A stretch of 58,805 bases of DNA from Chiloscyllium plagiosum (taxonomy: Eukaryota). Below, piece after piece: positions 316-55,826 of this stretch. The position numbers and the translations under genes are program-made. Within the stretch, counting starts at the first letter, position 1. Every line of letters begins with the position of its first letter. The notes below the pieces were generated by a model. It ran no database searches. It was not told the origin of the DNA and saw only the letters and a list, made by a program, of their open reading frames with translations. The DNA lies in the NCBI RefSeq assembly GCF_004010195.1, contig NC_057754.1:2761341-2820145 (forward strand), written 5' to 3'.

Positions 316-494
316 TGTTCCCCCAGCCACCATTCCAACGCCCCTCCCCCAAGTCCCTCCTCCCTATCTTTTATCTTAGCCTGCTGGACCAACTTTCCTC
401 ATTCCTGAAGAAGGGCTAATGCCCGAAACGTCGATTCTCCTGTTCCCTAGATGCTGCCTGACCTGCTGCGCTTTTCCAGCAACACATTTCCATC
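316..494 (+). mobile_element. Penelope-like element 3' end, hammerhead family A
   Basis: Near-identical to 19826-19987, which adjoins PLE RT sequence; flanked by direct repeat TAACACCTG (307-315, 495-503). Confidence 0.8.
401..436 (+). ncRNA. Minimal type I hammerhead ribozyme motif (family A)
   Basis: CTGAAGA-A-GGGC-TAAT-GCCC-GAAA-C-GTC: full core, 4-bp stem II, GUC triplet; stem I weak. Confidence 0.7.
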
Positions 495-1057
495 TAACAC
501 CTGATTGCCTGATCTCACTTTTCACCTGGCCCCCTGTTGAATACGGGTTATTAAGTGGCAGCGAGGTGTTAAGTGACTATTATGTGTTAAATGATGATTA
601 GGTGTTAAGTGATGTCTTGCCTTTAGTTGTGTCCCACCCTCTAGGATTCCTATGCTCAACTTCTCCCCAATGCCTCCCAGCCCAACAAACTATGCTTTAC
701 AAAAATAAAGTAAACCACTGCGGATGCTGGAAATCGGAAACAAAATCAGGAATTGCTGGAAAGATCTGGCATCTAGGGAGAGAAAGCAGAGCTAACATTT
801 TGGGTCTGTTAACTGTTTAGGATGTTTTTAAGATTGGTTTCAAATCAGTGACCTCTCTGCCTCCCAACCCAAGACTCTTCTTTACTTTCCCGGGATCTCA
901 ACATGTCTCCAGTTCCGGCCTCTTGCAGATTCCTGATCAGTCCAGCACTGTGCTTTCGACTGCCTGGACTCCTTTACTTGGGAAGTTCCTCTCTAAAACT
1001 CCCCACCTATGTTTTTGCATATGAAATGGAATTTACATGTGAAAGAACCGAAACCAA

Positions 1058-1852
1058 AATGCCCGTTCTTTAATATGAGAGACTTAACAAACAATCCAGG
1101 TCTTTTTCAATATATAACTTCAGTTACATCACACTGTAAACTTTTGCTATGAATGCTGTGTCCAGCAATTTTATACTCCACAACCATCTGATGAAGGAGC
1201 GGCGCTCTGAAAGCCAGTACTTCCAAATAAACCTGTTGGACTATAACCTGGTCATAGAGTCATAGAGATGTACAGCACGGAAACAGACCCTTCGGTCCAA
1301 GCCTTCCATGCCGACCAAATATCACAACCCAATCTAGTCCCACCTGCCAGCACCCATCCCATATCCCTCCAAACCCTTCCTACTCATATACCCATCCAAA
1401 TGTCTCTTAAATGCTGTCATTGTACCAGCCTCCACCACTTCCAATCCTGGCAATATCCTTGTAAATCTTTCCTGAACCCTTTCAAGCTTCATAACATCTT
1501 TCCGACAGGAAGGAGACCAGAATTGCGCACAATATTCCAACAGTGGCCTACCGAATGTCCTGTACAGCCGCAACATGACCTCGCTGCATTTTGGGAAAGC
1601 AAATCTTAGCAGGACTTACGTACTTAATGCTAAGGTCCTGGGGAGTGTTGCTGAACAAAGAGACCTTGGAGTGCAGGGTCATAGCTCCTTGAAAGTGGAG
1701 TCGCAGGTAGATAGGATAGTGAAGAAGGCGTTTGGTATGCTTTCCTTTATTGGTCAGAGTATTGAGTACAGGAGTTGCCTCGGCATTTTTCTGAATGTTG
1801 TGTGATTTTTAAACTTGTACATCCCAGTCCAACACTGGCCTCTCCACATCAT
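1058..1852 (+). mobile_element. PLE-derived end, hammerhead family B (degenerate), split by a CR1 insertion
   Basis: Matches 39795-40029; consensus ctataacctggt|gttgtgtg is interrupted at about 1253-1795. Confidence 0.7.
1253..1778 (-). mobile_element. CR1-clade LINE 3' fragment with inverted 5' part
   Basis: (ATGACTCT)n tail at 1253-1268; ORF RPLLEYCAQFWSP..LERVQERFTR; 1583-1778 reads on + (HFGKAN..ERDLGV..KKAFGML). Confidence 0.85.
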
Positions 1853-2243
1853 ATTTTTTTTAATGGTGCTTCTTAATATTTGGCTACCTATCTTAATATT
1901 TCCCTTTGTGTCAAATCTCAATTGACAATGCCTCTGGGAAGCACTTTAGGGCCATTGGCCCAAGGTGCTATATAAATACCAGCTGTTTTGGATGTCAACC
2001 ACCAAATACTTGAGCTGAAGCAAACACGCAATAACTCTGATGGCAGGATATTGAAATTCGAGAACTGGAAATGAGTGAAATGATAAACTTAGGAAAAGGA
2101 AGGATTTCGCACATCATCAGGTTGATGCCGGGCACCTCCTCAAAATTCCTCCTGAAGCACAGCAGGCAGATAGGGCTGCCATTTTCAGCATAGCAAGGAA
2201 AATGAATTGGTTGCCCTGTCGGTCTGCATTTTGACAGTATTGG

Positions 2244-2471
2244 GCAGAAGTGAGGACTGCAGATGCCGGAAGCTAGAGTTTAGATTAGAGCGGTGCTGGA
2301 AGAGCACAGCAGGTCAGGCAGCATCCGAGGAGCAGGAAAATCGACGTTTCGGGCAAAAGCCCTTCATCAGGAAACGCCCTGATGAAGGGCTTTTGCTCGA
2401 AACGTCGATTTTCCTGCTCCTCGGATGCTGCCTGACCTGCTGTGCTTTTCCAGCACCGCTCTAATCTAAAC
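2244..2471. mobile_element. Palindromic PLE mini-element (two head-to-head family A ends)
   Basis: Inverted arms about 2278-2370 / 2379-2471; hammerhead cores at 2343-2370(-) and 2379-2406(+); 15-bp TSD TTTTGACAGTATTGG. Confidence 0.9.
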
Positions 2472-2549
2472 TTTTGACAGTATTGGTTCACCCAGAGAAA
2501 CTATGTGCAGGGATCTGTCAGAACTTGGGTCCAATGGTAACCGTAGGAT

Positions 2550-2750
2550 ATTTAGCATTCAACCGAGGTGGCAGATGTTGATTTAATGTCTCATCTGACA
2601 GGTGGCACCTGAGACTGTGCAGCACTCCCTTTATCTGGGCACTCAAAATGTCAGCTTGGATTGTGTGCTGAAGTTTACAACATCCACCCCACCTCGGATT
2701 TTTTTTTTTGACTCAGAGGGCTGTATGCTTCAAACTGAGAGGGAGGGTTG
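2550..2750 (-). mobile_element. Deu-domain SINE remnant (SacSINE1/AmnSINE-like)
   Basis: tttaatgtctcatctga..ggcacct..gtgcagcactccct..tgtcagc..tgactcagagg motif order. Confidence 0.6.
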
Positions 2751-2754
2751 TTAA

Positions 2755-4190
2755 CATGTCAGATTGGTTTATGTGCAGGGAAGGTCAGGTCTTACCAACT
2801 TAATAGAATTCTTTGAGGAAGTGACAAAGTTGGTTGATGAGGGAAGGGCTGGAGATGTCATATAGATTAGATTACTTACAGTGTGGAAACAGGCCCTTCG
2901 GCCCAACAAGTCCACACCGACTCGCGACTGTGGGAGCAAACTGGAGCACCCGGAGGAATCCCACACAGACACGGGGAGAATGTGCAAACTCCTCACAGAG
3001 AGTCACCTGAGGCAGGAATTGAACCCGGGTCTCTGGCGCTGTGAGGCAACAGTGCTAACCACTGAGCCACCGTGCCGTCCATGGGCTTCAGTGAGGTTCC
3101 CCATGATAGGCTGACGGAGAAGGTGACGTCGCATGGGGTCCAAGGGTGTGGTGGTTTGATGGATAAAGAATTGGCTGGGCAACAGGACACAGAGAGTAGT
3201 AGTAGAAGGGAGTTTCTCAAAATGGGGACCTGTGACCAGTGGGGTTCCACAGGGATCCATATTGGGACCACTGTTGTTTGTGATATACGTAAATGATTTG
3301 GAGGAAGGTGTAGGTGGTCTGATTAGCAAGTTTGCAAATAACACTAAGATTGGTGGAGTAGCAGGTAGTGAAGGGGTCTGTCAGAGAATACAACAGAATA
3401 TAGATGGATTGGAGCTTTGGGTGGAGAAATGGCAGATGGAGTTCAATCCTGGCAAATGCGAGGTGATGCATTTTGGAAAATCCAATTCAAGAACAACCAT
3501 CCAGTGAATGGAAAAGGCCTGGGGAAAGTTGATGTATGGAGCGATCTGGGTGTCCATTGTACTCTGAAGGTGGCAGGTTGATAGAGTGGTCAAGAAGGAA
3601 TATGGCGTGCTTTCCTTCATCAAACGGGGTATTGAGTACAAGAGTTGGCAGGTCATGTTACAATTGTAAAAGACTTTGGTTCAGCCACATTTGGAATACT
3701 GCGTACAGTTCTGGTCGCCACCTTACTCAAAGGATGTGGATGTTTTGGAGAGGGTGCAGAGGAGGTTCACCAGGATGTTGCCTGGTATGGAGGGTGCTAG
3801 CTATGGAGTTTGAGCAGATTAGGATTATTTTCATTATAAAGACTGAGGTTAGGGAGGATTTGATTGACGTCTACAAAATCATGAGAAGCTTTTTCCCAGA
3901 GTGGGGGTCACGGGTTCAAGGTAAGAAGGGAAATGTTTAGGGGAGATATACGTGGAAATTTCTTTAAGCAGAGGGTAGTGGGTGCCTGGAATACACTGCC
4001 AGCAGAGGTGATAGAGGTGGGCACGATAGCGTCATTTTAGATGTGTCTAGACAGATACATGAATGGGCGCAGGGAGCAAAGGGATACAGATCCTTAGAAA
4101 AGAGGTGACAGGTTTAGACAGAGGATCTGGATCGGTGCAGGCTTAGAGGGCCGAAGGGCCTGTTCCTGTGCTGTAATGCTCCTTGTTCTT
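2755..4190 (+). mobile_element. CR1-clade LINE, RT C-terminal half plus 3' end, decayed
   Basis: SGVPQGSILGPLLFVIYVNDL..ISKFANNTK..WQMEFNPGKCEVMHFG; 3' hairpin gggccgaagggcct. Confidence 0.9.
2863..3079 (-). mobile_element. HE1-type V-SINE (internally deleted), nested in CR1
   Basis: tRNA-like A/B-box head and (AATCT)n tail. Confidence 0.9.
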
Positions 4191-4417
4191 GGAGAGAGTT
4201 TGTGTATCAGAGCCGATAGTTGTCAATGAACTGATGTGACTTTTCATGCAGAGTCTTCTGGTTGTTTACTTAACGTTTGAGAGATTCATTCAAACATCTG
4301 ATAACAATGGGGACGAAGCTGATCTTGAGTCTACTCATTTGTGCGTGAGGACATTTATATCTTCTGCCTGAGAGTGGAAGAGAGTTAAACAGGGTGGGAG
4401 GGGTGTTTGATAGTGTT

Positions 4418-4531
4418 GGAGCGACGCTCCGAAAGCTAGTGTGCTTCCAATTAAACCTGTTGGACTATAACCTGGTGTTGTGTGATTTTTAACTTTTGTA
4501 CACCCCAGTCCAACACCAGCACCTCCAAATC
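4418..4531 (+). mobile_element. 5'-truncated PLE family B end
   Basis: ggagcgacgctccgaaagctagtg..ctccaaatc; lacks the CTGATGA half. Confidence 0.75.
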
Positions 4532-5348
4532 AGTAATAAGTGAAAGCAGTGTGTATGTGTGTGTGGGACTCTTGACTGAACAAACTTCAACAAACAAAAA
4601 TATGAATCAGACAGGAACTCTGCAACTTAAACCAATAACTAAAGGGAGGCTTGTCATTTAGACTATGAGATAATCTCCAAGTGTCAGAGTTGTAGTAACA
4701 AACAGACGTAACCATGGGAACGGTTACCTGTGGTGCAGGTTATTTTTTTGGAAACTTACCGCTGATCAATGGAGGTGTCTGTTGATGCCAGGAGCAACAG
4801 CAGTTATTAGAGATGACCTGCTTCTCCCCAGCAGAGAGATGGTGCACCTGGTACACGTATCTGCTGAAAACCACCTGCACTGAGCCTTCACTTTGCGAAG
4901 TGGATCATGTCCATTTCATACCAGACTTGAAATGTTTGTCTGTTTATCTCCCCACAGATGCTGCTAGACCCACACTAGCACTCAATGGTATTTGCAAGCA
5001 ATAAAGGTTAGCCAGTGCACCGGAGTTTGTTTGTTCCATAGGACTGTGAGACCCAAAGGAGTAAGGACCAGGCTCTTCAGCGACTCTAGCCTTCTCTATC
5101 AATCGACAGGATCGTGGCTAATCTATCACTCCTCACGCCTACTTTCCTGCCCCTTCCCCAGGACAACTTGATCAAGAACTGTCTCAGCCTTAAGTATCCA
5201 CAAGAACTCTGCCTCCATAGCTCTCTGTGATAGTGAGAGTTCCAACCCTCTGACAGAACAAACAATCCAGGTCTCTTGCAATATATAATTTCAGTTACAT
5301 CACTCCCTGAACTTTTGCCACAAATTCTGCATCTTACGATCTTATACT

Positions 5349-5988
5349 CCACAGCCACCCAGGTGGATAGTGCTGTTAAGAAGGTATACGGTGTGTTAGG
5401 TTCCATTCGTAGAGGGATTAAGTCCAGAGCCGCAATATCATGCCGCAACTATACAAAACGCTGGTGCGGCCACACTTGGAATATTGTGTCCCCATGTTTC
5501 GGGAAGGATGTGGGAGCATTGGAAAAGGTGCAGAGGAGATTTACCAGGATGTTGCCTGGTCTGGAGGGAAGGTCTTGTGAGGAATGGCTGAGAGACTTGA
5601 ACCTGTTCTCATTGGCAAGAAGAAGGCTAAGAGGGGATTTGACAGAGACATACACGATGATCAGAGGATTAGATAGGGTAGACAGTGAAAGTCTTTTTCC
5701 TAGGATAATTACTTCAGTGTATATGAGGGGGCATAACTACAAATTGAGGGGTGATAGATTTAAGACAGATGTCAGAGGCAGGTTCTTTACGCAGAGAGTG
5801 GTAAGGGCGTGGAATGCCCTACCTGCTAATGTAGTCAACTCAGCCGCATTAGGGAGATTTAAACAATCCTTAGATAAGCACATAGATGATGATGGGATAG
5901 TGTAGGGAGACGAGCTGAGAATAGTTCACAGGTCGGCGCAACATCGAGGACCGAAGGGACTGTTCTGCGCTATATTGTTCTATGTTCT
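5349..5988 (+). mobile_element. CR1-clade LINE 3' fragment
   Basis: [42 protein letters not shown]; (TTCTATG)-type tail. Confidence 0.9.
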
Positions 5989-6380: not shown

Positions 6381-7015
6381 GTTAAAAAGTGTGGTGCTGG
6401 AAAAGCACAGCAAGTCAGGCATCAGCCGAGGAGCAGCAGAATCAATGTTTCGGGCATAAGCCCATCAACATTCCTGATGAAGGGCTTACACCCGAAACGT
6501 TGACTGTGTTGCTCCTCGGATGCTGCCTAACCGGCTGTGCTTTTCCAGCATCACACTTTTTGACTCCCAATAACAATTCTCTCAGGGCGGCACGGTGGCA
6601 CAGTGGTTAGCACTGCTGCCTCACAGCGCCAGGGACCCGGGTTCAATCCCACCCTCGGGCAATTGTTTGTGCGGAGTTTGCACCTTCTCCCCCTGTCTGC
6701 GTGGGTTTCCTCCGGGTGCTCCGGTTTCCTCCCACAGTCCAAAGATGTGCAGGGTCAGGTGAATTGGCCATGCTAAATTGCCTGTAGTGTTAGGTGAAGG
6801 GGTAAATGTAGGGGAATGGGTCTGGGTGGGTTGCGGGTCAGTGTGGACTTGTTGGGCCGAAGGGCCTGTTTCCACACTGTAAGTAAGCTAATCCAAACTA
6901 ATCATATGGGGTGATGGTGTTAGTCGGGTATAAATTCTGTGATTGTACTGCTGAGGCAGACAGTTAAAGGTTTGAGAGACTTTGATCTCCAGCATCTGCA
7001 GTCCTCAGTTTCTCG
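6381..7015. mobile_element. Palindromic PLE family A element with captured inverted flank and nested HE1
   Basis: Inverted arms 6381-6465 / 6471-6565; element tail resumes at about 6980-7015; degenerate TSD 6367-6380 / 7017-7030. Confidence 0.75.
6585..6903 (+). mobile_element. HE1-type V-SINE, full length
   Basis: gggcggcacggtggcacagtgg..ggttcaatccc head, central V domain, CR1-like tail. Confidence 0.95.
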
Positions 7016-12446: not shown

Positions 12447-12540
12447 CAAAGTTAAAAATCACACAACCCCAGGTTATAGTCCAACAGGCTTATTTGGAAG
12501 CACTAGCTTTCGGAGCGACGCTCCTTCATCAGGTGGTTGT
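12447..12540 (-). mobile_element. PLE family B end with intact hammerhead motif (12501-12535)
   Basis: Minus strand CAC-CTGATGA-A-GGAGC-GTC-GCTCC-GAAA-GC-TA-GTG. Confidence 0.8.
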
Positions 12541-12895
12541 CCCTCTAACCAACGCTGTGTTAAATATTCATTTGTAGAAGCTGTTCAGGAAAGACAGATT
12601 TACGTAATTTTGGATTGTGTCCTGGGTTTGTGTGTGTGAATGATACAGTGAGAAGCCTTCACACTGTAGGAAGGGTAAGTGACTGCGGTAAAGATAGCTG
12701 AAGTCAGAAAAAAGCCAATTATTTACTTCCATCAGTTTGTGTAAGCTGTTGCCTTTAAGCAGTAGCTCAGAGACTTTGCAGATTATGTGCTAATCATCCA
12801 GTGCATCCTACAAAGAAATGAAGGAAACTGGGAGAAAAGAGATTGAAGATTAGAGTGCTGGCAAGCCAAAAGGACCATGTCAACAAACCCTTTGG

Positions 12896-13139
12896 ATTTG
12901 TGCTACTGAACTTTGATTTTTTTTTTCCTTACCTCCACCCTCCTACATCTAGGAGCTGAGTAGGTACCAAAGGGGTAGCCATGGGCACACGTATGGGCCC
13001 CAGCTATGCCTGTCTCTATTTGTGCTACTGAACTTTGATTTTTTTTTTCCTTACCTCCACCCTCCTACATCTAGGAGCTGAGTAGGTACCAAAGTGGTAG
13101 CCATGGGCACACGTATGGGCCCCAGCTCTGCCTGTCTCT
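12896..13139. repeat. 122-bp tandem duplication
   Basis: 12896-13017 and 13018-13139 nearly identical. Confidence 0.9.
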
Positions 13140-14320
13140 TTGTTGGCTATGTAGAGCAGTTGATCTTCCGTAGTTACACCGGCACCACTCCCCACCTCTT
13201 CCTCTGCTACATTGATGACTGCATCGGCGCCACCTCGTGCTCCCGCGAGGAGGTTGAGCAATTCATCAACTTCACCAACACATTCCACCCTGACCTTAAA
13301 TTTACCTGGACCATCTCTGACACCTCCCTCCCCCTCCTGGACCTCTCCATCTCCATCAGTGACGACCGACTTGACACTGACATTTTCTACAAACCCACCG
13401 ACTCCCACAGCTACCTGGATTACACCTCTTCCCACCCTAACTCTTGCAAAAATGCCGTCCCGTATTCCCAATTCCTCCGCCTCCGCCGTATCAACTCCCA
13501 GGAGGAGCGGTTCCACCATAGAACACACCAGATGGCCTCCTTCTCTAGAGACCGCAATTTCCCTTCCCACATGGTTAAAGATGCCCTCCAACGCATCTCA
13601 TCCACATCCCGCACCCCCGCCCTCAGACCCAACCCCTCCAACCGCAACAAGGACAGAACGCCCCTGGTGCCCACCTTCCACCCTACCAACCTTCGCATAA
13701 ACCAAATCATCCGCCGACATTTCCGCCACCTCCAAACAGACACCACCACCAGGGATATATTTCCCTCCCCACACCTTTCNNNNNNNNNNNNNNNNNNNNN
13801 NNNNNNNNNNNNNNNNNNNNNNNNNNNNNNNNNNNNNNNNNNNNNNNNNNNNNNNNNNNNNNNNNNNNNNNNNNNNNNNNNNNNNNNNNNNNNNNNNNNN
13901 NNNNNNNNNNNNNNNNNNNNNNNNNNNNNNNNNNNNNNNNNNNNNNNNNNNNNNNNNNNNNNNNNNNNNNNNNNNNNNNNNNNNNNNNNNNNNNNNNNNN
14001 NNNNNNNNNNNNNNNNNNNNNNNNNNNNNNNNNNNNNNNNNNNNNNNNNNNNNNNNNNNNNNNNNNNNNNNNNNNNNNNNNNNNNNNNNNNNNNNNNNNN
14101 NNNNNNNNNNNNNNNNNNNNNNNNNNNNNNNNNNNNNNNNNNNNNNNNNNNNNNNNNNNNNNNNNNNNNNCCACCCTCCTCTAGCTTATCTCTCCACGCT
14201 TCAGGCTCACTGCCTTTATTCCTGATGAAGGGCTTTTGCCCGAAACGTCGATTTCAAAGCTCCTCAGATGCAGCCTGAACTGCTGTGCTCTTCCACCACC
14301 ACTAATCCAGAATCTGGAAT
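13088..14320 (+). mobile_element. Penelope-like retroelement (Neptune-type), 5'-truncated RT, spans a gap, ends in a family A hammerhead end
   Basis: VAMGTRMGPS..YIDD..LPLLDL..FYKPTDSHSYLDYTSSHP..PYSQFLRLRRI; intact hammerhead motif at 14222-14249. Confidence 0.9.
13780..14170. other. Assembly gap
   Basis: N run. Confidence 1.
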
Positions 14321-19209: not shown

Positions 19210-19987
19210 AGAATCTGAGTTCATCCCTTGTGGTTGGAGGGTTCCCAGGCAGAAGATGAGGCGCTCTTCCTCCAACCGTCGTGTTGCCATGGTCTGGCGA
19301 TGGAGGATGCGGTTGCAGGGGAAGGTGCCGGGAGTGGAGGTTGGGTTGGTGGGGGGTGTGGATCTGACGAGGGAGTCACGGAGGGAGTGGTCTTTTCGGA
19401 ACGCTGATAGGGGAGGGGAGGGAAATATATCCCTGGTGGTGGGGTCCGTTTGGAGTTGGCGGAAATGACGGCGGATGATACGTTGTACATGGAGGTTGGT
19501 GGGGTGGTAGGTGAGGACCAGTGGGGTTCGGCCCTGGTGGCGGTTGGAGGGGCGGGGCTCAAGGGCGGAGGAGCGGGAAGTGGAAGAGATGTGGTGGAGG
19601 GCATCGTCGACTACGTCGGGGGGGATATTGCGGTCCTTGAAGAAGGAGGCCATCTGGGTTGTACGGTTTTGGAACTGGTCCTCCTGGGAGCAGATGCGGC
19701 GGAGACGAAGGAATTGGGAATATGGGATGGCGTTTTTACAGGGGGCAGGGTGGGAGGAGGTGTAGTCCAGGTAGCTGTGTACTATTTACTATAAACCGAC
19801 CGACTCCCACAGCTACCTAGACTACAATTCCAACGCCCCTCCCCCAAGTCCCTCCTCCCTACCTTTTATCTTAGCCTGCTGGACACACTTTCCTCATTCC
19901 TGAAGAAGGGCTTATGCCCGAAACGTCGATTCTCCTGTTCCCTGGATGCTGCCTGACCTGCTGCGCTTTTCCAGCAACACATTTTCA
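19210..19987. mobile_element. Neptune-type PLE with inversion: RT thumb/EN remnant (-) plus family A end (+)
   Basis: Minus ORF MASFFKDRN..RTPLVLTYHPTNL..RRLEEERLIFCLGTLQPQGMN; intact hammerhead motif 19900-19927(+). Confidence 0.9.
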
Positions 19988-21905: not shown

Positions 21906-22361
21906 GTCCTCCTTTGCTGCACCTGTGAACCCTGGAGACTATAAAACAGTCATTATGCCCAAATATTTAGTCACTGGCAAAATTAATATTTATCCTTCCC
22001 CAGTTGGCACAATTTTAGGTTGCATAATAACTCTGTATTTTGGTCTTCAACCAGTCCTCCTTTGCTGCACCTGTGAACCCTGGAGACTATAAAACAGTCA
22101 TTATGCCCAAATATTTAGTCACTGGCAAAATTAATATTTAGAGCTGGAAATGTGTTGCTGGAAAAGCGCAGCAGGTCAGGCAGCATCCAGGGAACAGGAG
22201 AATCGACGTTTCGGGCATAAGCCCTTCTTCAGCAACACATTTCCAGCTCTGATCTCCAGCATCTGCAGACCTCACTTTCTCCTCAAAAATTAATATTTAT
22301 CCTTCCCCAGTTAGCACCAATTTTAGGTTGCATAATAACTCTGTATTTTGGTCTTCAACCA
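21906..22361. repeat. 148-bp tandem duplication; second copy carries an insertion
   Basis: 21906-22053 versus 22054-22361. Confidence 0.9.
22141..22285. mobile_element. PLE family A mini-element with inversion
   Basis: Hammerhead motif 22205-22232(-); 14-bp TSD AAAATTAATATTTA (22127-22140, 22286-22299). Confidence 0.9.
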
Positions 22362-23364: not shown

Positions 23365-23688
23365 CAATAAGTGAATGGGAGTGAGGATGGAGGTGATAGG
23401 TCAGAGAGGAGGGTGGGGGACGTGTCCTACCTGCCAATCTTCCTTCCCACCTGTCTGTTCCACCCTCCTCTCTGACCTATAACCCTCACCCCAACCCCCA
23501 TTCACCCATTGTACTCTTTGCTACCTTCCCCCCCCCCCACTCTGGAGGCTCTCTGCCTCCATTTTTGATGAAGGGCGAAACGTCAATTTTCCTGCTTCTC
23601 AGATACTGCCTGACCTGCTGTGCTTTTCCAGCACCACTCTGATCTAGACTCTGGTTTCCAGCATCTGTAGTCCTCACTTTTGCCTCCT
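23365..23688. mobile_element. PLE family A 3' region with inversion, degenerate hammerhead
   Basis: Matches 55515-55800 in reverse; stem II partly deleted (tgatgaagggcgaaacgtc). Confidence 0.75.
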
Positions 23689-24840: not shown

Positions 24841-25686
24841 TAGAGTCATACAGCACAGAACTATGCCCTTCAGTCCATACTGACCAGATAGGGTGGCACG
24901 ATGGCTCAGTGGTTAGCACTGCTGCCTCACCGCACCAGGGTCCCAGGTTCGATTCCAGCCTCGGGTCATTGTCCGTGTGGAGTTTGCACATTCTCCCAGT
25001 GTCTGCGTGGGTTTCCTCCCGGTGCTCCGGTTTCCTCCCACAGTCCAAAGATGTGCAGGTCAGGTGAATTGGCCACGCTAAATTGCCCGTAGTGTTAAGT
25101 GCATTAGTCAGAGGGAAATGGATCTGGGTGGGTTACTCTTTGGAGGGTCGGTGTGGACATGTTGGGCTGAGGGGCCTGTTTCCACACTGTAGGGAATCTA
25201 ATCTAATCAGATATCCTAAATCAATCTAATCCCATTTGGCCCATAATCCTCCAATCCTTCCTATTTACATACCTATCTAGATGTCTTTTAAATGTTGTAA
25301 TTGTACCAGCCTCCACCACTTCCTCTGGCAGCTCATTCCACACATATATACCACCCTCTGCGTGAAAAAGTTGCCCCTTAGGTCCCTTTTAACTCTTTCC
25401 CCTCTCACCTTAAACCGATGCACTCGAGTTTTGGACCCCCCCGACCTTGGGGAAAAGACCTTGTCTATTTACCCTAGCTGTGCCCCTCAGCCTCCGACGC
25501 TCCAGGGAAAACAGCCCCAGCCTATTCAGCCTCTCCCTATAGCTCAAATCCTCCAATCCCGGCAACATCCTTGTAAATCCTTTCTGAACCCTTTCATGTT
25601 TCACAACCTTCCTATAGCAGGGAGACCGGTGTTGCACACAGTATTCCAATAGTGGCCTAACCAATGTCCTGCACAGCCGCAACAAC
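24841..25686 (-). mobile_element. CR1 LINE 3' fragment interrupted by HE1
   Basis: RTLVRPLLEYCVQ..ERVQKGFTRMLPGL. Confidence 0.85.
24891..25207 (+). mobile_element. HE1-type V-SINE, full length
   Basis: Head, V domain and tail; TSD CAGATA. Confidence 0.95.
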
Positions 25687-32454: not shown

Positions 32455-32610
32455 AAAAGTGAGGACTGCACATGCTGGAAATCAGAGTCTAGAGTCATTT
32501 ACCTCTCCACCCCGGAGCCTCCCTGCCTTCATTCCTGATGAAGGGCTTTTGCCCGAAACGTCGATTCTCCTGCTCCTCGGATGCTGCCTGACCTGCTGTG
32601 CTTTTCCAGA
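32455..32610. mobile_element. PLE family A end with inversion, intact hammerhead motif 32535-32562(+)
   Basis: CTGATGA-A-GGGC-TTTT-GCCC-GAAA-C-GTC. Confidence 0.85.
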
Positions 32611-34546: not shown

Positions 34547-35018
34547 NNNNNNNNNNNNNNNNNNNNNNNNNNNNNNNNNNNNNNNNNNNNNNNNNNNNNN
34601 NNNNNNNNNNNNNNNNNNNNNNNNNNNNNNNNNNNNNNNNNNNNNNNNNNNNNNNNNNNNNNNNNNNNNNNNNNNNNNNNNNNNNNNNNNNNNNNNNNNN
34701 NNNNNNNNNNNNNNNNNNNNNNNNNNNNNNNNNNNNNNNNNNNNNNNNNNNNNNNNNNNNNNNNNNNNNNNNNNNNNNNNNNNNNNNNNNNNNNNNNNNN
34801 NNNNNNNNNNNNNNNNNNNNNNNNNNNNNNNNNNNNNNNNNNNNNNNNNNNNNNNNNNNNNNNNNNNNNNNNNNNNNNNNNNNNNNNNNNNNNNNNNNNN
34901 NNNNNNNNNNNNNNNNNNNNNNNNNNNNNNNNNNNNNNNNNNNNNNNNNNNNNNNNNNNNNNNNNNNNNNNNNNNNNNNNNNNNNNNNNNNNNNNNNNNN
35001 NNNNNNNNNNNNNNNNNG
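34547..35018. other. Assembly gap
   Basis: N run. Confidence 1.
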
Positions 35019-35733
35019 GGCAATTTAGCACGGCCAATCCACCCTAACCTGCACATCCGTGGGCACTATGGGCAATTTAGCACGGCCAATCCACTCTAAC
35101 CTGCACATCCCTGGGCACTATGGGGCAATTTAGCACGGCCAATCCACCCTAACCTGCACATCCGTGGGCACTATGGGCAATTTAGCACGGCCAATCCACC
35201 CTAACCTGCACATCCGTGGGCACTATGGGCAATTTAGCACGGCCAATCCACCCTAACCTGCACATCCGTGGGCACTATGGGCAATTTAGCACGGCCAATC
35301 CACTCTAACCTGCACATCCCTGGGCACTATGGGGCAATTTAGTTTGGCCAAGCCACCCTAACCTGCACATCCCTGAACACTATGGGCAATTTAGCTTGGC
35401 CAATCCACCCTAACCCGCACATCCCTGGGCACTAAGGGCAATTTAGTACGGACAATCCACCCTAACCCGCACATCCCTGGGCACTAAGGGCAATTTAGCA
35501 CGGCTGATCCACCCTAACCTGCACATCCCTGGGCACTATGGGACAATTTAGCACGGCCAATCCACCCTAACCCGCACATCCCTGGGCCTAAGGGCAATTT
35601 AGCACGGCCAATCCACCCTAACCTGCACATCCCTGGGCACTATGGGCAATTTAGCTTGGCCAATCCACCCTAACCTGCACATCCCAGGGCACTATGGGCA
35701 ATTTAGCACGGCCAATCCACCCTAACCCACATA
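35019..35733. repeat. 52-bp minisatellite expanded from the HE1 internal repeat unit
   Basis: About 14 copies of GGGCAATTTAGCACGGCCAATCCACCCTAACCTGCACATCC(G/C)TGGGCACTAT. Confidence 0.95.
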
Positions 35734-38835: not shown

Positions 38836-39594
38836 TCTAGCTCCCACGTCAATTTAGCTTTTAAATTGTCTTGATCTGCCTTTTCAGGACGTTTGATTGC
38901 CCTATACCATTGACATGATGTGGGAGGTTAACAGTGTGGAAAGCTTGGTGATCTTCTGAAATTGACATTTTGCTTAGTTGACTCTGCACTTCATTGATGT
39001 GTTCGTACTTGTGCACCTTTGAGGTGTGGTATTGCACTACCTTGTTGGTCACCTGTGGTTTGTTCTGGATCTGGCTTGGACTTGGGAATCAGCCCACTGT
39101 CCCTGGATTCCACGTGATGTGCAGATATCAGAAAAGGCTGGACCTGATTTTGGGCAGGTGGGACAAGCCATGACTGTTAACAGATTTTGTTTGGTGTGCT
39201 TTGCTGACAATGGAAGTAGTGTTGGCTGCACCTAAAGCATGTAATTGTTTTGGGCTGCCATTATAGCTTAATACTTGGATCCATCTTCAAGTAATGCATA
39301 AGTGGGCATATGATGTGCTCATACTTATGTCATCCCCCATAACAAAAGAAATTGGACATGGATATCACGATATTGAAGAATCTAATAGACATTATTACAA
39401 CTGACTGTTAGATACAAACATTATATTCCTCAGGCACATTGTTTCAGGTCTAACCTAAAGCTATTAGTTACAACAGAAAACAGCATTTTTCCAGTCGTGT
39501 GTCGTACTGCAGGAGATCCCAGCAGGAGATAGAATATGACCTTTATAACCTCAGGTCACATACTGTGGTGATATCATGAGCATGTTTCTTAAAG

Positions 39595-40029
39595 TTAAAA
39601 ATCACACAACACCAGATTATAGTCCAACCGGTTTATTTGGAAGCACTAGCTTTCGGAGCGTCACTCCTTCATCAGGTGATTGTGGAGGACACAATTCTAA
39701 GGCACAGAATTTATAGCAAAAATTTACAGTGTGATGTAACTGAGATTATACATTGAAAAAAACCTTGATTGTCTGTTGGGTCTTTGATCGAACAGATGAA
39801 AGATTCAACAGACAATCAAGGTTTTTTTCAATGTATAATCTCAGTTACATCACACTGTAAATTTTTGCTATAAATTCTGTGCCTTAGAATTGTGTCCTCC
39901 ACAACCACCTGATGAAGGAGCGACGCTCCGAAAGCTAGTGTGCTTCCAATTAAACCGGTTGGACTATAACCTGGTGTTGTGTGATTTTTAACTCTGTACA
40001 CCCCAGTCCAACACCGGCATCTCCAAATT
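39595..40029. mobile_element. Palindromic PLE family B element
   Basis: About 195-bp inverted arms; hammerhead motifs 39647-39675(-) and 39909-39937(+); 13-bp TSD ATGTTTCTTAAAG. Confidence 0.9.
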
Positions 40030-41092: not shown

Positions 41093-41262
41093 GTAGGCAG
41101 CATCCAACGAGCAGGGGAATTGACGTTTCGGGCAGATTCCTGAAGAAGGGCTCATGCCCGAAACGTCGATTCTCCTGTTCCTTGGATGCTGCCTGACCTG
41201 CTGCGCTTTTCCAGCAACACATTTTTCAGCTCTGATCTCCAGCATCTGCAGTCCTCACTTTC
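41093..41262. mobile_element. PLE family A mini-element with inversion, intact hammerhead motif 41140-41167(+)
   Basis: 13-bp TSD TCCTAGGCAGTAG (41080-41092, 41263-41275). Confidence 0.9.
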
Positions 41263-41390
41263 TCCTAGGCAGTAGATAAGCAAAATTTACAAAAATAGTA
41301 AATAGGGTTCTTCTGGCTACTTTACATGGCTACATGTAAGATATATGATTATCTTGAGACCCATCAGTTACAACTTAAGTGTAAGTACAG

Positions 41391-42049: not shown

Positions 42050-42056
42050 TACGTGC

Positions 42057-45297: not shown

Positions 45298-45307
45298 AAA
45301 GATCATA

Positions 45308-46662: not shown

Positions 46663-46751
46663 TGAAATGTGTTGCTGGAAAAGCGCAGCAGGTCAGGCAG
46701 CATCTAGGGAACAGGAGAATCGACGTTTCGGGCATTAGCCCTTCTTCAGGA
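46663..46751 (-). mobile_element. PLE family A end, intact hammerhead motif 46722-46749
   Basis: Minus strand CTGAAGA-A-GGGC-TAAT-GCCC-GAAA-C-GTC. Confidence 0.85.
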
Positions 46752-47494: not shown

Positions 47495-47541
<47 letters not shown>

Positions 47542-47994: not shown

Positions 47995-49085
47995 ACTATT
48001 CATTTATTGATTAATCGTTGTCACATGTACCTAAGTACAGTGAGTTTTGTTTGGTGAGCAGCAAAGGCAGATCATAACAAACAAGTTCATACAGATGCTT
48101 AGTTAAAAATCACACAATACTAGGTTATAGTCCAACAGGTTTATTTGGAAGCACTAGCTTTCGGAGCGCCGCTCTTTCATCAGTTGACAATCAGGAGCGT
48201 CGCTCCGAAAGCTAGTGTGCTTCCAATTAAACCTGTTGGACTATAAGCTGATGTTGTGTGATTTTTAACTTTGTATACCCCAGTCCAACACCCACATCTC
48301 CGAATCATGACTAATACAGATGCTTAAACAGATGCTTAGACAGATTGAAGCATTACCAATACACAGGAGATGTAAAAAGGAAGGTCAACATTAGATCTGA
48401 AATTAGAGAGGTCCATTCAGCACTCTGATGTCAACAGGGAAGAAGCTGGTCCTGAACCTGTCGGTGCATGTGTTCAAGCTTCTGCCTGTTGGAAGAGAGC
48501 ATTACTGAGGGGGGGGGGGGGGGGGGGGGGGGCGGGGATCTTTGATGACATTGGCAGCTTTTCCATGGCAACAAAAAGTGTGAATAAAGTCCATGGATGG
48601 AAGATTGGCTTCCATTATGGTCTGGACTGCGGGCACAACTTTGTGTAGTTTCTTAAGTTCCTGGGCAGACTGCTTGCCACACAAGCTGTTATGCACCTGG
48701 GTAGAACGCTTTCTGTGGGGCATCAATAGAAGTTGGTGAGGGTCCCAAACTTCATAAGCCTCCTGAGGATGGAGAGGCGTTGCTGTGCCTTCCTGACTGT
48801 TACACCTACGTGGGAGCCCCAGAACAGATTGTCAGTTATCGTCACTCTTGACGCTCTCGACTCTCTCTCCACCTTGGCTCCATTGATGTAGATGGAGGAG
48901 TGACCTCCTCCTTTCTTCCTGAAGTCAATGATCAGCTCTTTTGTTTTGCTAACATCGGGCGAGAGATTGGTACGATTGCACCATGACACCAAGCACTCAA
49001 TCTCCTCATTCATTCATTGTTTGACATCCGGCCTACAACTGTGGTGTCAGGAGCAAACTTGTAATTGGCGTTTGTATGAAATTTG
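47995..49085 (-). mobile_element. Rex1/Babar-type LINE, RT C-terminus and 3' end
   Basis: LVSWCNRTNL..VSKTKELIIDFRK..ITDNLFW..RKAQQRLSILRRLMKFG. Confidence 0.8.
48102..48313. mobile_element. Palindromic PLE family B mini-element nested in the Rex LINE
   Basis: Inverted arms; 13-bp TSD ATACAGATGCTTA (48089-48101, 48314-48326). Confidence 0.88.
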
Positions 49086-50539: not shown

Positions 50540-51171
50540 AAAATGATGATTTTGAGTTCACGGGGAAGTAAAAACATTCTGCCAATGACTGGCAAGTGTG
50601 CAGGAGCTTGACAAAGGCAAAATAAGGCTAAACTGCATTGCCCTCTGCAGCTGAATAGCCTTATTCTGGCCTGCACCATTCAGGCTGTTGAACAATGGGC
50701 ACTGGGTGAGCATCCAGGGGCACTGTTTATTGCCCAGGAGTCAGAGTCTTAAAATGAGGAAGCATGAGTCAGGCTGTTGGGAAAGATACTTTAAAAAAAA
50801 CACAGCAGGCTCTTGTTGTATTTTAGTCCAGCTCATTCTGCGGTCACCTGCTTGCTATTCTATAGCTAATTTGATCTGAAGTTGCCTTGGAAATGGCCGT
50901 ATCAGCTGAAAGTTTGAGCTACAGGAATTTTTAGAAATTAAAAAAAGGGCACCGCCCTTTCTGCACTCGAGGCGTGTGGTGGCTGAGTCATTCTTGGGTG
51001 TGTCCCGAGGAGGCTGAACGGAAGATGAAAGGGCTGGGATTGGAGCCACATATCGAGTCTAACAGGCTGGAAGATTTGCTGGGAGGAGGGAGATTTTGGA
51101 ATTTGCATCTGTGTCTGGGTAAAACCAGAGAGAGTCCTGATTGACTCTGCCCAGAAACCAAAGCACTGAGA

Positions 51172-51724
51172 GAGATGTAGAGTCATGCAGCGTGGAAACA
51201 GGCCCTTCGGTCCAACTCGTCCATGCCGACCAAGTTTCCCAAACTAAACTAGTCCCATTTGCCCGCATTTGGCCAACATCCCTCCAAACCTTTCCTATTC
51301 CTGGGAGTTGCAGTGGGAGAGGGACTCCCTGAGATTATTGTAGAGAGAGGAGGAAAACTTCTTCAAGGCTCCTTGGATGCTGCCTGAACTGCTGTGCTCT
51401 TCCAGCACCACTCATCCAGAAACTGCTTTCCAGCATCTGCAGTCGTTGTTTTTACCCTTTCCCATTCCTGTTCCAGTCCAAATATCTTTTGGTTGTAACT
51501 GTATCTTCATCTACCACTTCCTCTGGCAGTTCATTCCACACACGAACCACCCTCTGTGTGAAAAACTTTCCCCTCACATCCCTTTTAAATCCTAGTTAGC
51601 TTAAAAACATGCCCTCTCGTTTCGAACTCCTCAAGGGAAAGGACCATTGCTGTTCACCTTATCCGTGCCCCTCATAATTTTTAGAAACCTCTAGAAGGTC
51701 ACCCCTCAACCTCCTACGCTCCAG
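51172..51724 (-). mobile_element. CR1 LINE 3' fragment with a nested PLE piece
   Basis: ggaaacaggcccttcggtcc terminus; aggtcacccctcaacctcctacgctccag. Confidence 0.85.
51304..51455. mobile_element. Short PLE family A insertion
   Basis: 15-bp TSD CCTTTCC(T/C)ATTCCTG (51289-51303, 51456-51470); ends in the family A tail. Confidence 0.75.
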
Positions 51725-51845
51725 TGATCTTCAATAGACAATAGACTATAGGTGCAGGCTATTCTGCCCTTTGAGGCTGCACCACCATTCATTATGATCA
51801 TGGCTGATCATCCTCAATCAGTATCAGGGATCTATGGACAAGCAC

Positions 51846-52326
51846 TTTTTTTTAAATTTCAAAAATATACTTTATTCATAAAATAATTTGATGGTCTGTA
51901 CAGTTGGTCATGCCATACATATGTAAACATGTACATACAGAGATCAGAATTTATCATTTTTATACAGGTCTGTACATTTTTCGATCATATGCCCATATAA
52001 TTAGCTGAGGCGTCAGCAGAGCCCAAATGACTGCGTGGGCCCCCTGTTCTTCGTTGGGCAGGCAGACTTTACACAGTGGTCTTTCCCCACCGCGCCTTGG
52101 CGGCAGCTGCCCCAAGCTTCAGCGCGTCCCTCAACACGTAGTCCTGGACCTTGGAATGTGCCAGTCTGCAGCACTCAGTCGGGGTCAACTCCTTCAGCTG
52201 GAAGACCAGCAGGTTTCGGAGCGTCCTTCACCGAGTTGATGATCCTCCAGGCACAGTTGATGTTCGTCTCGGTGTGCGTCCCGGGGAACAGGCCGTAGGG
52301 CACGGAGTCCCGCGTCACGGGATCGC
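51846..52326 (-). mobile_element. Tx1/L1-clade LINE, 5'-truncated ORF2 C-terminus plus 3' UTR
   Basis: YGLFPGTHTETNINCAWRIINSVKDA..RNLLVFQ..RLAHSKVQDYVLRD..KARWGKTTV*; AATAAA plus poly(A); TSD TGGACAAGCAC. Confidence 0.85.
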
Positions 52327-53497
52327 TGGACAAGCACCCCCAAGATGCCTCTTCTCCTGGTGTCCAACCATTCCTTGAGTACTCCCCTGTCTTGCTCCTT
52401 CTCCCAAAGTGTGTCACCTCATATTCATCAGAGTTCATTTCCATCTGCTACCGGTCTACCTATTTGACCAACCTGTTTCTGTCTTCCTGTTACCTAACGT
52501 CTTCTTTCTCGTTGTCAACCGCCTGGGCAGTCATCCGCAAACGTATTTATTATCCTCCGGACATTCTCATCTACATCATTTGGGAATATTGCAAATAGTA
52601 AGGAACCCACAAGCCACTTAGTATTTGTGATCGATTTGCGTGGCACCCTCTTCTGGCACCAAGGGACACTAACGGAGAATGCATGCTGACTCCAAGGACT
52701 GGTCGTGTGGACAGGATTGAGGGCAAAATGAGGGGGCGGGGGGGGGGGGAAGTTTCAATGAGGTTCGGTCCCCGAGTTTCAGTCTGGACCCTCAGTCGCA
52801 CCTGCCAGCTCACCCCTTTTTACCCTCCCCTGTCCCAGGTCCCAACAAGCACCACTCTCCCATTGAGGTAGGAATCCCACAGGGGCTGCCTCTTCCAAGC
52901 CCCCCATCTCAGGTGAACGATTGTTTCCCCCAGTGAAAAACTGTCTGACCGTTTGGCATTGGAAGGAATCACGCTGGATTGCATGGAGGACTGGGAGTGG
53001 ATGGACCAGTTTAACCTTCAGGCCTGGCCCTTTTAGAAGTGGCGGATTGAGCATGGAGTGGGGTTTAGACGTTCCCAGTAATCCCTCCCACTTCAGGCTG
53101 ATTGATCCTCACAGGCACTGAGGCTTGCTGTAGTAACCTCAAAGGCTTTACCTGTTCAGTACAGGCCTGTAGGCTGTTCAATGCAACATTGATCTCCTAC
53201 CTACAGTGCACTTCCTATTGGGTAATCAACATTCACAGTGACTAGAGGATCAGACCCTAACTCGTTGCCCTCCCCACTGGTCACTTAGCACTGGATCCTA
53301 CAACAAAGGGCCTAGAGTGAGATCAGCTAATGCATTACACAGGCTGCATAGTGAAGCTCAGGCCTGCTATGTGTTATGATCACGTTCCAGAATCTTCTGA
53401 GATGAAAATGGGACCAGATCAGTTTAGGAAACCTGGTTGATGTGGACGGGTTGGGTCGAAGGGCCTGTTTGAGTTCTGTATACCTATGGGACTCTAT

Positions 53498-53790
53498 GAT
53501 TAGATTAGATTCCCGACAGGGTGGAAACAGGCCCTTTGGCCCAGCAAGTCCACACTGACCCTCCGATGAGTAACCCACCCAGACCCATTTCCCTCTGACT
53601 GATGCACCAAACACTACGGGCAATTAAGCATGGCCAATTCACGTGACCTGCACATCTTTGGACTGTGGGAGGAAACCGGAGCACCCGGAGGAAACCCACA
53701 CAGACGTGGGGAGAATGTGCAAACTCCACACAGACAGTCACCCGAGGCGGGAATTGAACCTGGGACCCTGGTGCTGTGAGGCAGCAGTGT
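53498..53790 (-). mobile_element. HE1-type V-SINE
   Basis: V domain and tail; 5' end clipped. Confidence 0.93.
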
Positions 53791-53820
53791 TTGGGTGACT
53801 GTTTGTGTACATGCAGCACC

Positions 53821-55515
53821 AGGAGAAAGTGAGGACTGCAGATGCTGGAGAAGGGTGCCTGCTGAAGGGCTTATGCCCGAAACGTCGATTCTCCGGCTTA
53901 TCGGATGCTGCTTGACCTGCTGTGCTTTCTCCTGGGCCGTGAAGTGGGGATAGGTGAACACAAGTAGAGAGTACGGCCTGGTTGGTCGATGGGAGGAAAG
54001 AATCTGGTTAATAGTGGAAGGAAAGGTCAATTAGAGGGATGGAAGGGAGGGAGAGCAGCTGGGAAAGGAGTCAGAGGAATGGGAAGGGAGGTTATTTGAA
54101 ATTGTGGCCCTCAATGTTGAGTCCTCCAGACTGTAGGTTACCCACACAGAAGATGAGGAGTTGCCCCTTCAATTTGCGGTCTGATTCGTTGTGGCAATGG
54201 AGGAGGTCGAGGATGGTCATGTCGGTAAGGGAGTGGGAAGGGGAATTAAAATGGACAGTGCCTCGGAGGTTTTTGTGGGCCCGTCTGAGATGCTCAGCGA
54301 AACGTGCCCTGAGTTTAAGTTTGGTCTCCCCAATGTAGAGAAGACCACATCGGGAGCACCAGTTACGGTGGCTCAGTGGTTAGCGCTGCTGCCTCACAGC
54401 GCCAGGGACCCCGGTTCAATTCCCGGCTTGGGCAACTGTCTGTGTGGAGTTTGCACATTCTCCCCAGTGTCTGCGTGGGTTTCCTCCGGTTTCCTCCCAC
54501 AGTCCAAAGATATGCAGGTTGAATTGGCCATTGCTAAATTGTCCATAGTTTTAGGTGCATCAGTCATGGGTAAATGTAGGGGAATGGGTGGGTTGCTCTT
54601 CGGAGGGTCAGTGTGGATTTGTTGGGTCGAAGGGCCTGTTTCCACACGAAAGTTGGGAAAGGGAGGCTTTTTGAAATTGGAGAACTAATGTTGATTCCTC
54701 TGGGTTGTAAGCTACCCCAGGCAAAAGATAATTATTTGTTCCTCCAATTTGCAGTCTGATTGCTTGTGGCAATGGAGGAGGCTGAGGATGGTCATGTCAG
54801 AGAGGGAATAGGAAGGGGAATTGAAATAGGCAGTGACTGGGAGGCCAGGTCCGCCTTTGTGAGCATGGCTGAGATGCTCAGCAAAACATGCCCTTAGTTT
54901 ACATTCGGTCTCACCAATGCAGAGAAGACCACAGCGGGTGCACTGGGTACAACAAACTAGGTTGGAGGAGAGGCAGGTGAACCTCTGTCTGACCTGGAAG
55001 GACTGGGGTCCTGCATGGAAATGACAGGCGTGGTGTGTCGGCAGATTTTGCATCTTTTACGTTTGCATGGGAGGGTACCAGGGTTTTGTTGGGGGAGTAG
55101 ACGGTAGGTGTGAAGAGTGGTGAAAACCAAGGATTGGCAAAGGGAACGGTCCTTGTGGAAGGCAGAGAGGGGTAGGGAGGGGAAGGTGTTCTTGGTGGTG
55201 GGATCTAATTGGAGTTGGCGGAAGTGTTTCGGGATGATACATTGGATGTGGAGACTGGTTGGGTGGGTCGGTGAGGGAAGGGGACCCTGTCTTTATTGTG
55301 TTTAGATGGGGGCGAGGTTTGGAGCAGTGGAGCAGGGAATGGAGAAGGTGTGGTGCAGGACTGTCTAGATGACAGAGGGGGTAAAGCACGTTGTTCAAAA
55401 TAGGTGGACATCTGGGCTGCCTGGGCGTGGAATGTCTCCTCGTCCGAGCAGATGCAGAGGAATTGGGAGAACGGGATTGTGTTCTTGCAGGATACTGGGA
55501 TGGAGGAGGTGTAGG
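53821..55515 (-). mobile_element. Neptune-type PLE: RT thumb plus GIY-YIG endonuclease remnant with partial tandem duplication and inverted end
   Basis: FTCLSSNLVCCTQCTRCGLLCIGETECKLRACFAEHL..KLEEQIIIFCLG; 54060-54360 repeats 54650-54935. Confidence 0.85.
54365..54647 (+). mobile_element. HE1-type V-SINE nested in the PLE
   Basis: Head, V domain and tail. Confidence 0.92.
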
Positions 55516-55826
55516 TAAAAACAATGACTGCAGATGCTGGAAACCAGATTCTGGATTAGTGGTGCTGGAAGAGCACAGCAATTCAGGCAGCATCCGAGGA
55601 CAGGCAAAATCGACGTTTCGGGCAAAAGCCCTTCATCAGGAATAAAGGCAGAGAGACTGAAGCGTGGAGAGATAAGCTAGAGGAGAGTGGGGGTGGGGAG
55701 AGAGTGGCATAGAGTACAATAGGTCAGGGGGGAAGGAGATGAAGGTGATAGGTCAGGGAGGAGAGGGTGGAGTGGATAGGTGGAAAAGAAGCTGGGCAGG
55801 TCGGACAAGTCCGGACAAGTCAGGGG
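55513..55826 (-). mobile_element. PLE family A 3' end, intact hammerhead motif 55612-55639
   Basis: Reverse complement of 14171-14320. Confidence 0.88.

What the first reader, a model, noticed from the sequence alone, without database searches (positions are those of the whole stretch)
401..55639. Family A minimal hammerhead ribozymes scattered across the window on Penelope-like ends
Seen: CTGA(T/A)GA-A-GGGC-nnnn-GCCC-GAAA-C-GTC occurs intact at 405(+), 2343(-), 2379(+, wobble), 14222(+), 19900(+), 22205(-), 32535(+), 41140(+), 46722(-) and 55612(-). Among these copies, variation falls at core position 7 (T/A) and the stem II loop (TTTT, TAAT, TTAT, TCAT), where hammerheads tolerate change. 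The motif is physically attached to Neptune-type RT at 13088-14320 and 19210-19987. Established: PLEs carry minimal type I hammerheads whose palindromic stem III loop allows dimeric cleavage, and an extra A after A9 is a known natural variant. Inference: stem III forms only by pairing ACGT with ACGT of a second copy. Stem I (ATTC/GATT) is weak, so activity is unproven.
Basis: partly seen in the sequence, partly recalled or inferred. Interest (0 to 1): 0.72.

Follow-up and report, generated by a model that had tools for sequence, protein, structure and literature searches.

The report
Shark Penelope hammerheads mark transcript starts
These motifs are tiny hammerhead-ribozyme sequences at the ends of a very abundant Penelope-type jumping gene in a likely shark genome, a known arrangement, and most copies are short stubs that likely record reverse transcription running off the capped start of an uncut RNA, so the scattered copies are likely inert even though paired base changes between families suggest the parent element keeps the ribozyme under selection.

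Summary
In detail: 9 exact motifs plus one wobble copy, none in shuffles. They belong to a Neptune/Nematis-type Penelope-like element (PLE): RT, Zn linker, GIY-YIG, then hammerhead and tail. The genome holds 86,254 exact copies. Minimal PLE hammerheads are known (PMC4209133).

Corrections: the 14222 link to RT crosses an N gap; at 19.2-20 kb RT and hammerhead lie on opposite strands; only 6 of 10 copies keep stem I; close neighbours are mostly head-to-head, so cis dimers are unlikely.

Support for a selected ribozyme: stems I and II and the palindrome covary across families (ACGT/AGCT), and one family of 1,248 copies has U3-A8 for C3-G8.

Beyond the finding: 5' ends pile up at the first bases of stem I, with an excess G in front (8,911 vs 4,913; family B 2,255 vs 352) and a TATA-like box 30-32 nt upstream. 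The tail runs on into the ORF. Most copies are therefore likely cap-to-tail reverse transcripts of uncut RNA. In 59 of 67 inverted pairs exactly one arm has the long tail. I found no clear cleavage footprint. The scan reached similar readings before, in this and other genomes (254 notes).

The parts
401..436 (+). Family A minimal hammerhead (stem I ATTC/GATT; predicted cut after C at 432), preceded by 76 nt of element 3' UTR and followed by a short tail
2255..2373 (-). Long-tail arm of a head-to-head pair; motif at 2370-2343, stem I partly lost
2378..2460 (+). Short-tail arm of the same pair; wobble motif at 2379, 5' strand of stem I lost
6391..6554 (.). Older, degenerate head-to-head family A pair
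13082..13779 (+). PLE reverse-transcriptase fragment (GVAMGTRMGP..YIDD region), ending at an N gap
14171..14317 (+). Element 3' end with TTATCT at -32, hammerhead 14218-14253 and short tail, beyond the 391-N gap
19220..19779 (-). Inverted arm: RT thumb, linker and endonuclease C-terminus with an internal deletion
19784..19980 (+). 43-nt RT piece joined to 3' UTR, hammerhead (19896-19931) and short tail
22144..22235 (-). Stub starting at the core, joined to an inverted long-tail piece; stem I lost
23418..23686 (+). 3' UTR plus hammerhead with stem II deleted, long tail
32503..32609 (+). Family A copy with about 40 nt upstream and an inverted tail piece
41095..41265 (+). G-ATTC stub: begins at the inferred transcription start (A at 41136) with an extra G; intact hammerhead, long tail, short inverted arm
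46669..46751 (-). Stub starting 2 nt before the core, short tail
53858..53926 (+). Stub with a core change at position 6
55513..55826 (-). Element 3' UTR, intact hammerhead (55643-55608), long tail
12447..12541 (-). Family B stub starting G-ACAACCAC (inferred start plus extra G); hammerhead with AGCT palindrome
39591..40009 (.). Family B head-to-head pair, both arms with TATAAA 32 nt before the inferred start
48101..48286 (.). Family B head-to-head stub pair

Best explanation
The motifs are the minimal hammerhead of a high-copy Neptune/Nematis-type Penelope-like retrotransposon, and most window copies are likely inert stubs made when reverse transcriptase, likely starting inside the tail, ran off the capped 5' end of an uncut transcript. 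Shown: the unit order is RT - Zn linker - GIY-YIG - 3' UTR - hammerhead - tail, and the tail continues into the 5' part of the ORF. Copy 5' ends pile up at the first bases of stem I, with an excess G before them and a TATA-like box 30-32 nt upstream. Inverted pairs carry one long and one short tail. Stems and the 3-8 core pair covary between families. Inferred: a promoter in the upstream pseudo-LTR starts transcription at the A of ATTC, so the hammerhead is the first ~36 nt of the mRNA and recurs at its 3' end. The protein nicks both target strands and primes two cDNAs from the two tail start sites. A cDNA begun in the 5' leader ends at the cap (stub, extra G). One begun in the 3' repeat runs on into EN and RT (long copies). 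The two cDNAs join head to head. The ribozyme likely cuts slowly after GUC, only as a dimer and with protein help, in master transcripts; cutting in the leader would remove the cap.
For: Architecture. The tail-to-ORF junction is covered in RNA reads of a run under a related species label. 5' ends: 48 of 142 tail-anchored copies from unselected regions end at -5..-1 (9.6 per nt, against 1.75 inside the motif and 0.1 upstream of -12). 340 RNA reads of that run have loose ends at -4. Extra G: 8,911 G-ATTC vs 4,913 A-ATTC and, in family B, 2,255 vs 352, with background G 0.218 and A 0.283. None of 30 G-ATTC loci shows element body upstream (one automatic flag was false on reading). Promoter box: TATAAA at -30..-32 in 15 of 15 family B cases and TTATCT at -30..-32 in 81 of 86 family A cases. 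An extra G marks capping in full-length L1 insertions (PMC11702581). Tail asymmetry: 59 of 67 (A) and 33 of 39 (B) pairs have exactly one long tail, none has two. Covariation; U3-A8 in 99 of 100 listed of 1,248 family H matches. In vitro precedent for internal start sites, an uncut template and a protein-assisted hammerhead: PMC11167929.
Against: No transcription start or cleavage was observed directly. The only raw RNA run that laid (single-cell polyA, related species label, about 2% read) shows no pile of read starts or ends, and reads lie on both strands. In 6 distinct G-ATTC loci the G lies inside the target duplication, so it could be target-derived. In the local sample, family B G starts are few (8 G vs 11 C among body-less copies; 5 of 7 non-inverted ones). 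No complete tandem unit (hammerhead-tail-ORF-hammerhead) was recovered from this gappy assembly; the order is pieced from separate loci. The active dimer fold is unfavourable by nearest-neighbour energies (-9.3 vs cofold minimum -22 to -25 kcal/mol). Pfam hits are just under their cut-offs.
Confidence: 0.72

Rival explanations
1. The motif is kept as an RNA fold (protein-binding or packaging signal) or as a promoter-proximal element and no longer cuts in vivo.
For: Copies derive from uncut RNA. Copies starting at the cut site are only slightly enriched: 934 vs 669 at the next base, and 5 of 142 locally. Folding disfavours the active state. PMC4209133 reports low activity, and PMC11167929 finds hammerhead mutants still insert in vitro.
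Against: The C3-G8 to U3-A8 swap, the palindrome swap CG/GC and NUH kept in all ten family patterns are catalytic-core constraints. The anole PLE hammerhead cuts with protein (PMC11167929).
Confidence: 0.2
2. The pile-up of 5' ends comes from joining by microhomology to ATT-type endonuclease target sites, or from an RT stall, not from a transcription start.
For: The anole endonuclease prefers 5'-ATT-3' (PMC11167929). Family A starts with ATT, a small bump lies at GATT (+28), and target duplications sometimes include GAT.
Against: Family B has no ATT at its boundary yet shows a 6.4-fold G excess and a canonical TATAAA at -30..-32. An RT stall is expected on the 3' side of a hairpin, not past it (inference).
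Confidence: 0.15
3. One reading: the scattered copies are working ribozymes that pair up and cut host transcripts.
For: The genome holds 86,254 exact cores, and RNA reads cover the motif on both strands.
Against: Among 85 near-intact copies, neighbours under 500 bp are on the same strand once and on opposite strands six times. 4 of 10 window copies lack stem I. No read ends pile at the cut site. Copies decay at CpG sites like neutral DNA.
Confidence: 0.08
4. The stubs are a separate non-autonomous family (retrozyme or SINE-like) that amplifies itself.
For: Very high copy number, sharp ends and target duplications. Animal retrozymes derive from pLTRs (10.64898/2026.07.22.740005).
Against: The stubs match the same subfamilies as RT-linked copies and lack the upstream box. 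They are not in hammerhead tandem arrays, and the inversion junctions differ from copy to copy.
Confidence: 0.05

Closest known systems
Minimal hammerheads in pLTRs of metazoan PLEs (Cervera and de la Pena 2014, PMC4209133; Lunse et al., seen only as cited in PMC6765202)
   Same: Type I layout, no stem III loop, palindromic 15.2/16.2, extra base after A9, G10.1-C11.1, mostly solo copies. The U3-A8 variant is also reported there, in Schistosoma.
   Different: Copy number is at least 86,254 exact for one family, against about 9,000 (Xenopus) and 4,000 (coelacanth), counted with a different descriptor. Stem II is only 4 bp.
Poseidon element of the green anole, PAc (Frangieh et al. 2024, PMC11167929)
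   Same: Hammerhead followed by a tail with two discrete 3' ends; tail continuous with the ORF; uncut RNA as template; no read ends at the cut site.
   Different: Different clade (Zn linker here). That paper did not map a start site and saw no start-site difference between strands. Here paired arms are nearly always one long and one short, and the 5' ends carry a cap-like G.
Neptune/Nematis EN+ PLE insertions (Craig et al. 2021, PMC8557442)
   Same: C-terminal GIY-YIG, CX2-5CxxC linker, strong 5' truncation, inverted 5' copy, tail at one end only.
   Different: Truncation here is concentrated at one point, the front of the hammerhead.
Penelope of Drosophila virilis promoter (Schostak et al. 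2008, PMC2377424)
   Same: Transcription starts inside the pLTR, upstream of the hammerhead.
   Different: That promoter is internal and TATA-less, with an intron between start and hammerhead. Here the inferred start is at or within 8 nt of the core, with a TATA-like box upstream.

Membership tests
Minimal PLE hammerhead (type I) | Core CUGANGA ... GAAA ... UH | tested here: met
   recovered core-blind from tail-defined clusters
Minimal PLE hammerhead (type I) | Stem II with G10.1-C11.1 and an extra base after A9, with covariation | tested here: met
   GGGC/GCCC, GGAGC/GCTCC, GTTACCT/AGGTAAT and others
Minimal PLE hammerhead (type I) | Stem I closing the motif | tested here: met
   3-4 pairs with compensatory changes across families; U.U mismatch in most A subfamilies, perfect in the CTGT one; lost in 4 of 10 window copies
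Minimal PLE hammerhead (type I) | Palindromic 15.1-16.1 allowing dimer stem III | tested here: met
   CG 106 and GC 26 of 169 descriptor hits; CA 25 and TG 5 fit CpG decay
Minimal PLE hammerhead (type I) | Self-cleavage as dimer or with protein | not testable with these tools
   Indirect footprints were weak or absent
Rfam hammerhead families | Covariance-model match | tested here: not met
   no hammerhead among 9 matches at E<=1
EN+ Penelope-like element | RT followed by C-terminal GIY-YIG in one ORF | tested here: met
   L031/L257 open RT to GIY-YIG; Pfam GIY-YIG E 1.8e-4 and RVT_1 E 1.6e-6, both just under cut-off
EN+ Penelope-like element | Inverted 5'-truncated copy and one-sided tail | tested here: met
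EN+ Penelope-like element | Full unit flanked by direct pLTRs | tested here: inconclusive
   hammerhead-tail after the ORF and tail before the ORF seen in separate loci; no whole unit recovered
Neptune clade | CX2-5CxxC linker between RT and EN (shared with Nematis) | tested here: met
   CHRRNCKTC; definition from PMC8557442
Neptune clade | Placement in an RT phylogeny | not tested
   no reference PLE set available
Non-LTR retrozyme | Tandem repeats each with a hammerhead | tested here: not met
   no such array in the window; 1 same-strand neighbour under 500 bp among 85 copies

The most novel reading that the evidence does not exclude
In these shark PLEs the hammerhead begins at the cap and works as a switch between fates. 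Uncut RNA is the template, and a protein dimer loads both tail start sites to prime both ends of one break (one long arm, one short arm). Dimer cleavage, promoted by the same complex, decaps and retires the transcript. More than 100,000 stubs then form a nucleotide-resolution record of PLE start sites and of a two-ended priming mechanism.
Probability: 0.3. Interest if true: 0.7.

Novelty: new member of a known kind. Interest (0 to 1): 0.42.

Why it matters
The role of PLE hammerheads and the origin of inverted pLTRs are stated as open in PMC8557442 and PMC11167929. This genome gives quantitative constraints. The template is mostly uncut, the transcript likely starts at the hammerhead, paired arms use the two start sites one each, and natural compensatory variants (U3-A8, AGCT) show selection on the catalytic fold. 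These make direct tests cheap. The ten motifs in the window are ordinary, likely dead stubs.

Tried and rejected
Rfam search gave only chance miRNA-type hairpin hits. Pfam on the two window fragments gave nothing; longer genomic copies gave sub-threshold hits.

Cleavage footprint: copies starting at the cut site number 934 vs 669 at the next base (loci not inspected) and 5 of 142 locally. I judged this too weak and confounded by ATTC microhomology.

RNA: no listed holder is on record as RNA. Run X21 laid no reads. X20 showed no start or end pile, and this library type is not suited to the question.

A 'broken-core' family B lineage (C3.A8) was rejected: it co-occurs with CGA and TGA forms, as CpG decay predicts. 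A subfamily with templated G at -5 was rejected. A G copied from the cleavage product was rejected, because family B and the GAAT subfamily lack the needed homology.

No full tandem element was found among 20 + 30 loci, and the ORF start is unresolved. Lunse et al. could not be read. One Cervera supplement file was not searched and may list more species.
Full report
Observation. The motif matches 9 times exactly and 0 times in 100 shuffles; the wobble copy at 2379 is present. BLAST with one copy finds 20 family A pieces and 11 pieces of a second family, B. Rfam lists no hammerhead at E<=1. The window lies in a 3.56-Gb genome with 43,103 + 43,151 = 86,254 exact family A matches and 0 for the reversed control; family B has 15,860. 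That the host is a shark is my inference from a tRNA-derived SINE that I recall as HE1-like; no call names the organism.

Link to a PLE. The RT at 13082-13779 is cut from the 14222 motif by 391 N. At 19.2-20 kb the RT/EN piece is on the minus strand and the motif on the plus strand, an inverted two-arm insertion. Genome-wide the link is firm: of the 30 best RT loci (one is the window itself), 28 have the motif downstream on the same strand, 12 with no gap, and the two misses run into gaps. L031/L257 reads RT, CHRRNCKTC linker, IIYC..YIGETG endonuclease, stop, and the motif about 730 nt after the end of the RT query match. Pfam gives GIY-YIG and RVT_1 just under cut-off. The linker defines Neptune and Nematis together (PMC8557442, passages read); no tree was built. 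In L263 the tail that follows the hammerhead runs straight on into the 5' part of the ORF, and RNA reads under a related species label cover that junction. Hammerhead plus tail is thus both the 3' end and the 5' leader of the unit. No whole unit was recovered.

Is the fold selected? A descriptor scan of 1.39 Mb (120 fetched regions, 20 of them chosen for known matches, plus the window) gave 169 hits in at least seven families. Positions 15.2/16.2, left free, were CG 106, GC 26, CA 25, TG 5 and other 7. Stem I, also left free, pairs at 3-4 positions with different base pairs in different families. The exceptions are the U.U mismatch in three A subfamilies and one mismatch in family C, which had only 3 copies. 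Clustering 455 copies on the tail alone gave 12 clusters of 5 or more. The core was kept in those that could be called, while loops and the segment after the cut site varied, and one cluster had U3-A8. The sample for includes motif-selected loci, and part of the tail is as conserved as the core, partly because it was the anchor. The U3-A8 family has 1,248 matches, 99 of the 100 listed being U3-A8. PMC4209133 (parts 1-2 of 4 read; one of its supplement files searched) describes the same variant in Schistosoma. An apparent C3.A8 lineage of family B is CpG decay. Against activity: the active dimer scores -9.3 kcal/mol versus -22 to -25 for the best cofold, and monomers fold otherwise.

Where copies begin. 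Anchoring on the tail, 48 of 142 copies from unselected regions end at -5..-1 relative to C3 (copies running into N and 45 weak matches to family A were set aside). That is 9.6 per base, against 1.75 inside the motif and 0.1 upstream of -12. Before ATTC the element has C or T, yet the genome holds 8,911 G-ATTC and 4,913 A-ATTC copies, and family B holds 2,255 G-ACAAYCAC and 352 A-ACAAYCAC. None of 30 G-ATTC loci shows element body upstream, and 11 have an inverted arm. Non-inverted ends at -5..-1 are preceded by G in 15 of 30 cases, against 9 of 39 inside the motif. TATAAA lies 30-32 nt before the family B boundary in 15 of 15 cases and TTATCT 30-32 nt before the family A boundary in 81 of 86. 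An extra G is the mark of cap copying in full-length L1 insertions (PMC11702581, passages read). I infer a capped start at the front of stem I. Caveat: in 6 distinct loci the G is inside the target duplication, and the anole enzyme prefers ATT (PMC11167929), so microhomology contributes.

Two-arm insertions. Tails end at two places. In head-to-head pairs exactly one arm has the long tail in 59 of 67 (A) and 33 of 39 (B) pairs and none has two; about half is expected by chance. PMC11167929 (parts 1-2 of 4 and passages read) shows that an anole PLE nicks and extends both strands, starts at two internal sites that match tail ends, uses uncut RNA and has a protein-assisted hammerhead. The asymmetry suggests one start site per DNA end (inference). 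One-sided tails are known qualitatively (PMC8557442).

Does it cut? Copies beginning at the predicted cut number 934 against 669 one base on, far below the start-site peak and confounded. In the one raw RNA run that laid (1,806 reads, about 2% of the run), reads cover both strands and no starts or ends pile up. Among 85 near-intact copies, close neighbours are same-strand once and opposite six times, and 4 of the 10 window copies lack stem I. The scattered copies are likely inert. Catalysis in master transcripts is likely from covariation and precedent but is unshown.

Novelty. The kind is known. Searches of the held library found no paper on elasmobranch PLE hammerheads or cap-marked stubs. 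The 2026 retrozyme preprint (part 1 of 5 and passages read) includes one chondrichthyan but counts tandem arrays only. Lunse et al. was seen only through a review (PMC6765202, passages), and subscription papers and Repbase are not covered. PMC2377424 (passages) places the fly Penelope start in the pLTR with a TATA-less internal promoter. After my reading was formed, the scan's notes showed 254 findings with these words in at least 28 genomes, several with the same run-off reading; these are not independent evidence. Verdict: new member of a known kind, interest 0.42.

Noticed in passing
window 1188, 4425-4511, 5995, 12532(-), 26540, 39675(-), 39909, 41619(-), 48183(-): Family B PLE-type hammerhead (AGCT palindrome, canonical TATAAA upstream, 15,860 exact genome matches); its coding region was not examined.
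   Followed up: partly
L155, L159, L178 and genome-wide: Family H with a U3-A8 core and a perfect AGCT/AGCT stem I, 1,248 matches.
   Followed up: partly
fetched regions: Further hammerhead families (E, F, G) with U after A9, 7-bp stem II and unrelated tails; not linked to an ORF here.
   Followed up: partly
L012-L040: Many RT-linked copies have internal deletions in the endonuclease/3' UTR (motif 285-560 nt after the RT match instead of about 730).
   Followed up: no
window 35018-35727: 52-bp tandem array (13.6 copies) derived from an internal part of the dispersed SINE, next to an N gap.
   Followed up: no
window 1-60; L097, L149, L150: 49-bp tandem satellite derived from a PLE tail (family C type), lacking the hammerhead.
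   Followed up: no
window, about 19 copies (e.g. 6576-6834, 24882-25140): tRNA-derived SINE, recalled as HE1-like of sharks, plus CR1-like LINE 3' ends.
   Followed up: no
L030:1350-1650 in run X20: RNA reads over the endonuclease region are 3-4-fold strand-biased while hammerhead/tail reads are not; the direction depends on library chemistry.
   Followed up: no
L248 upstream of the RT match: The PLE fragment abuts a frame resembling an LTR-retrotransposon reverse transcriptase.
   Followed up: no
whole window: The window is about 6-fold richer in exact family A motifs than the genome mean; flanking regions of the same contig are not similarly rich (15 in 374 kb).
   Followed up: partly
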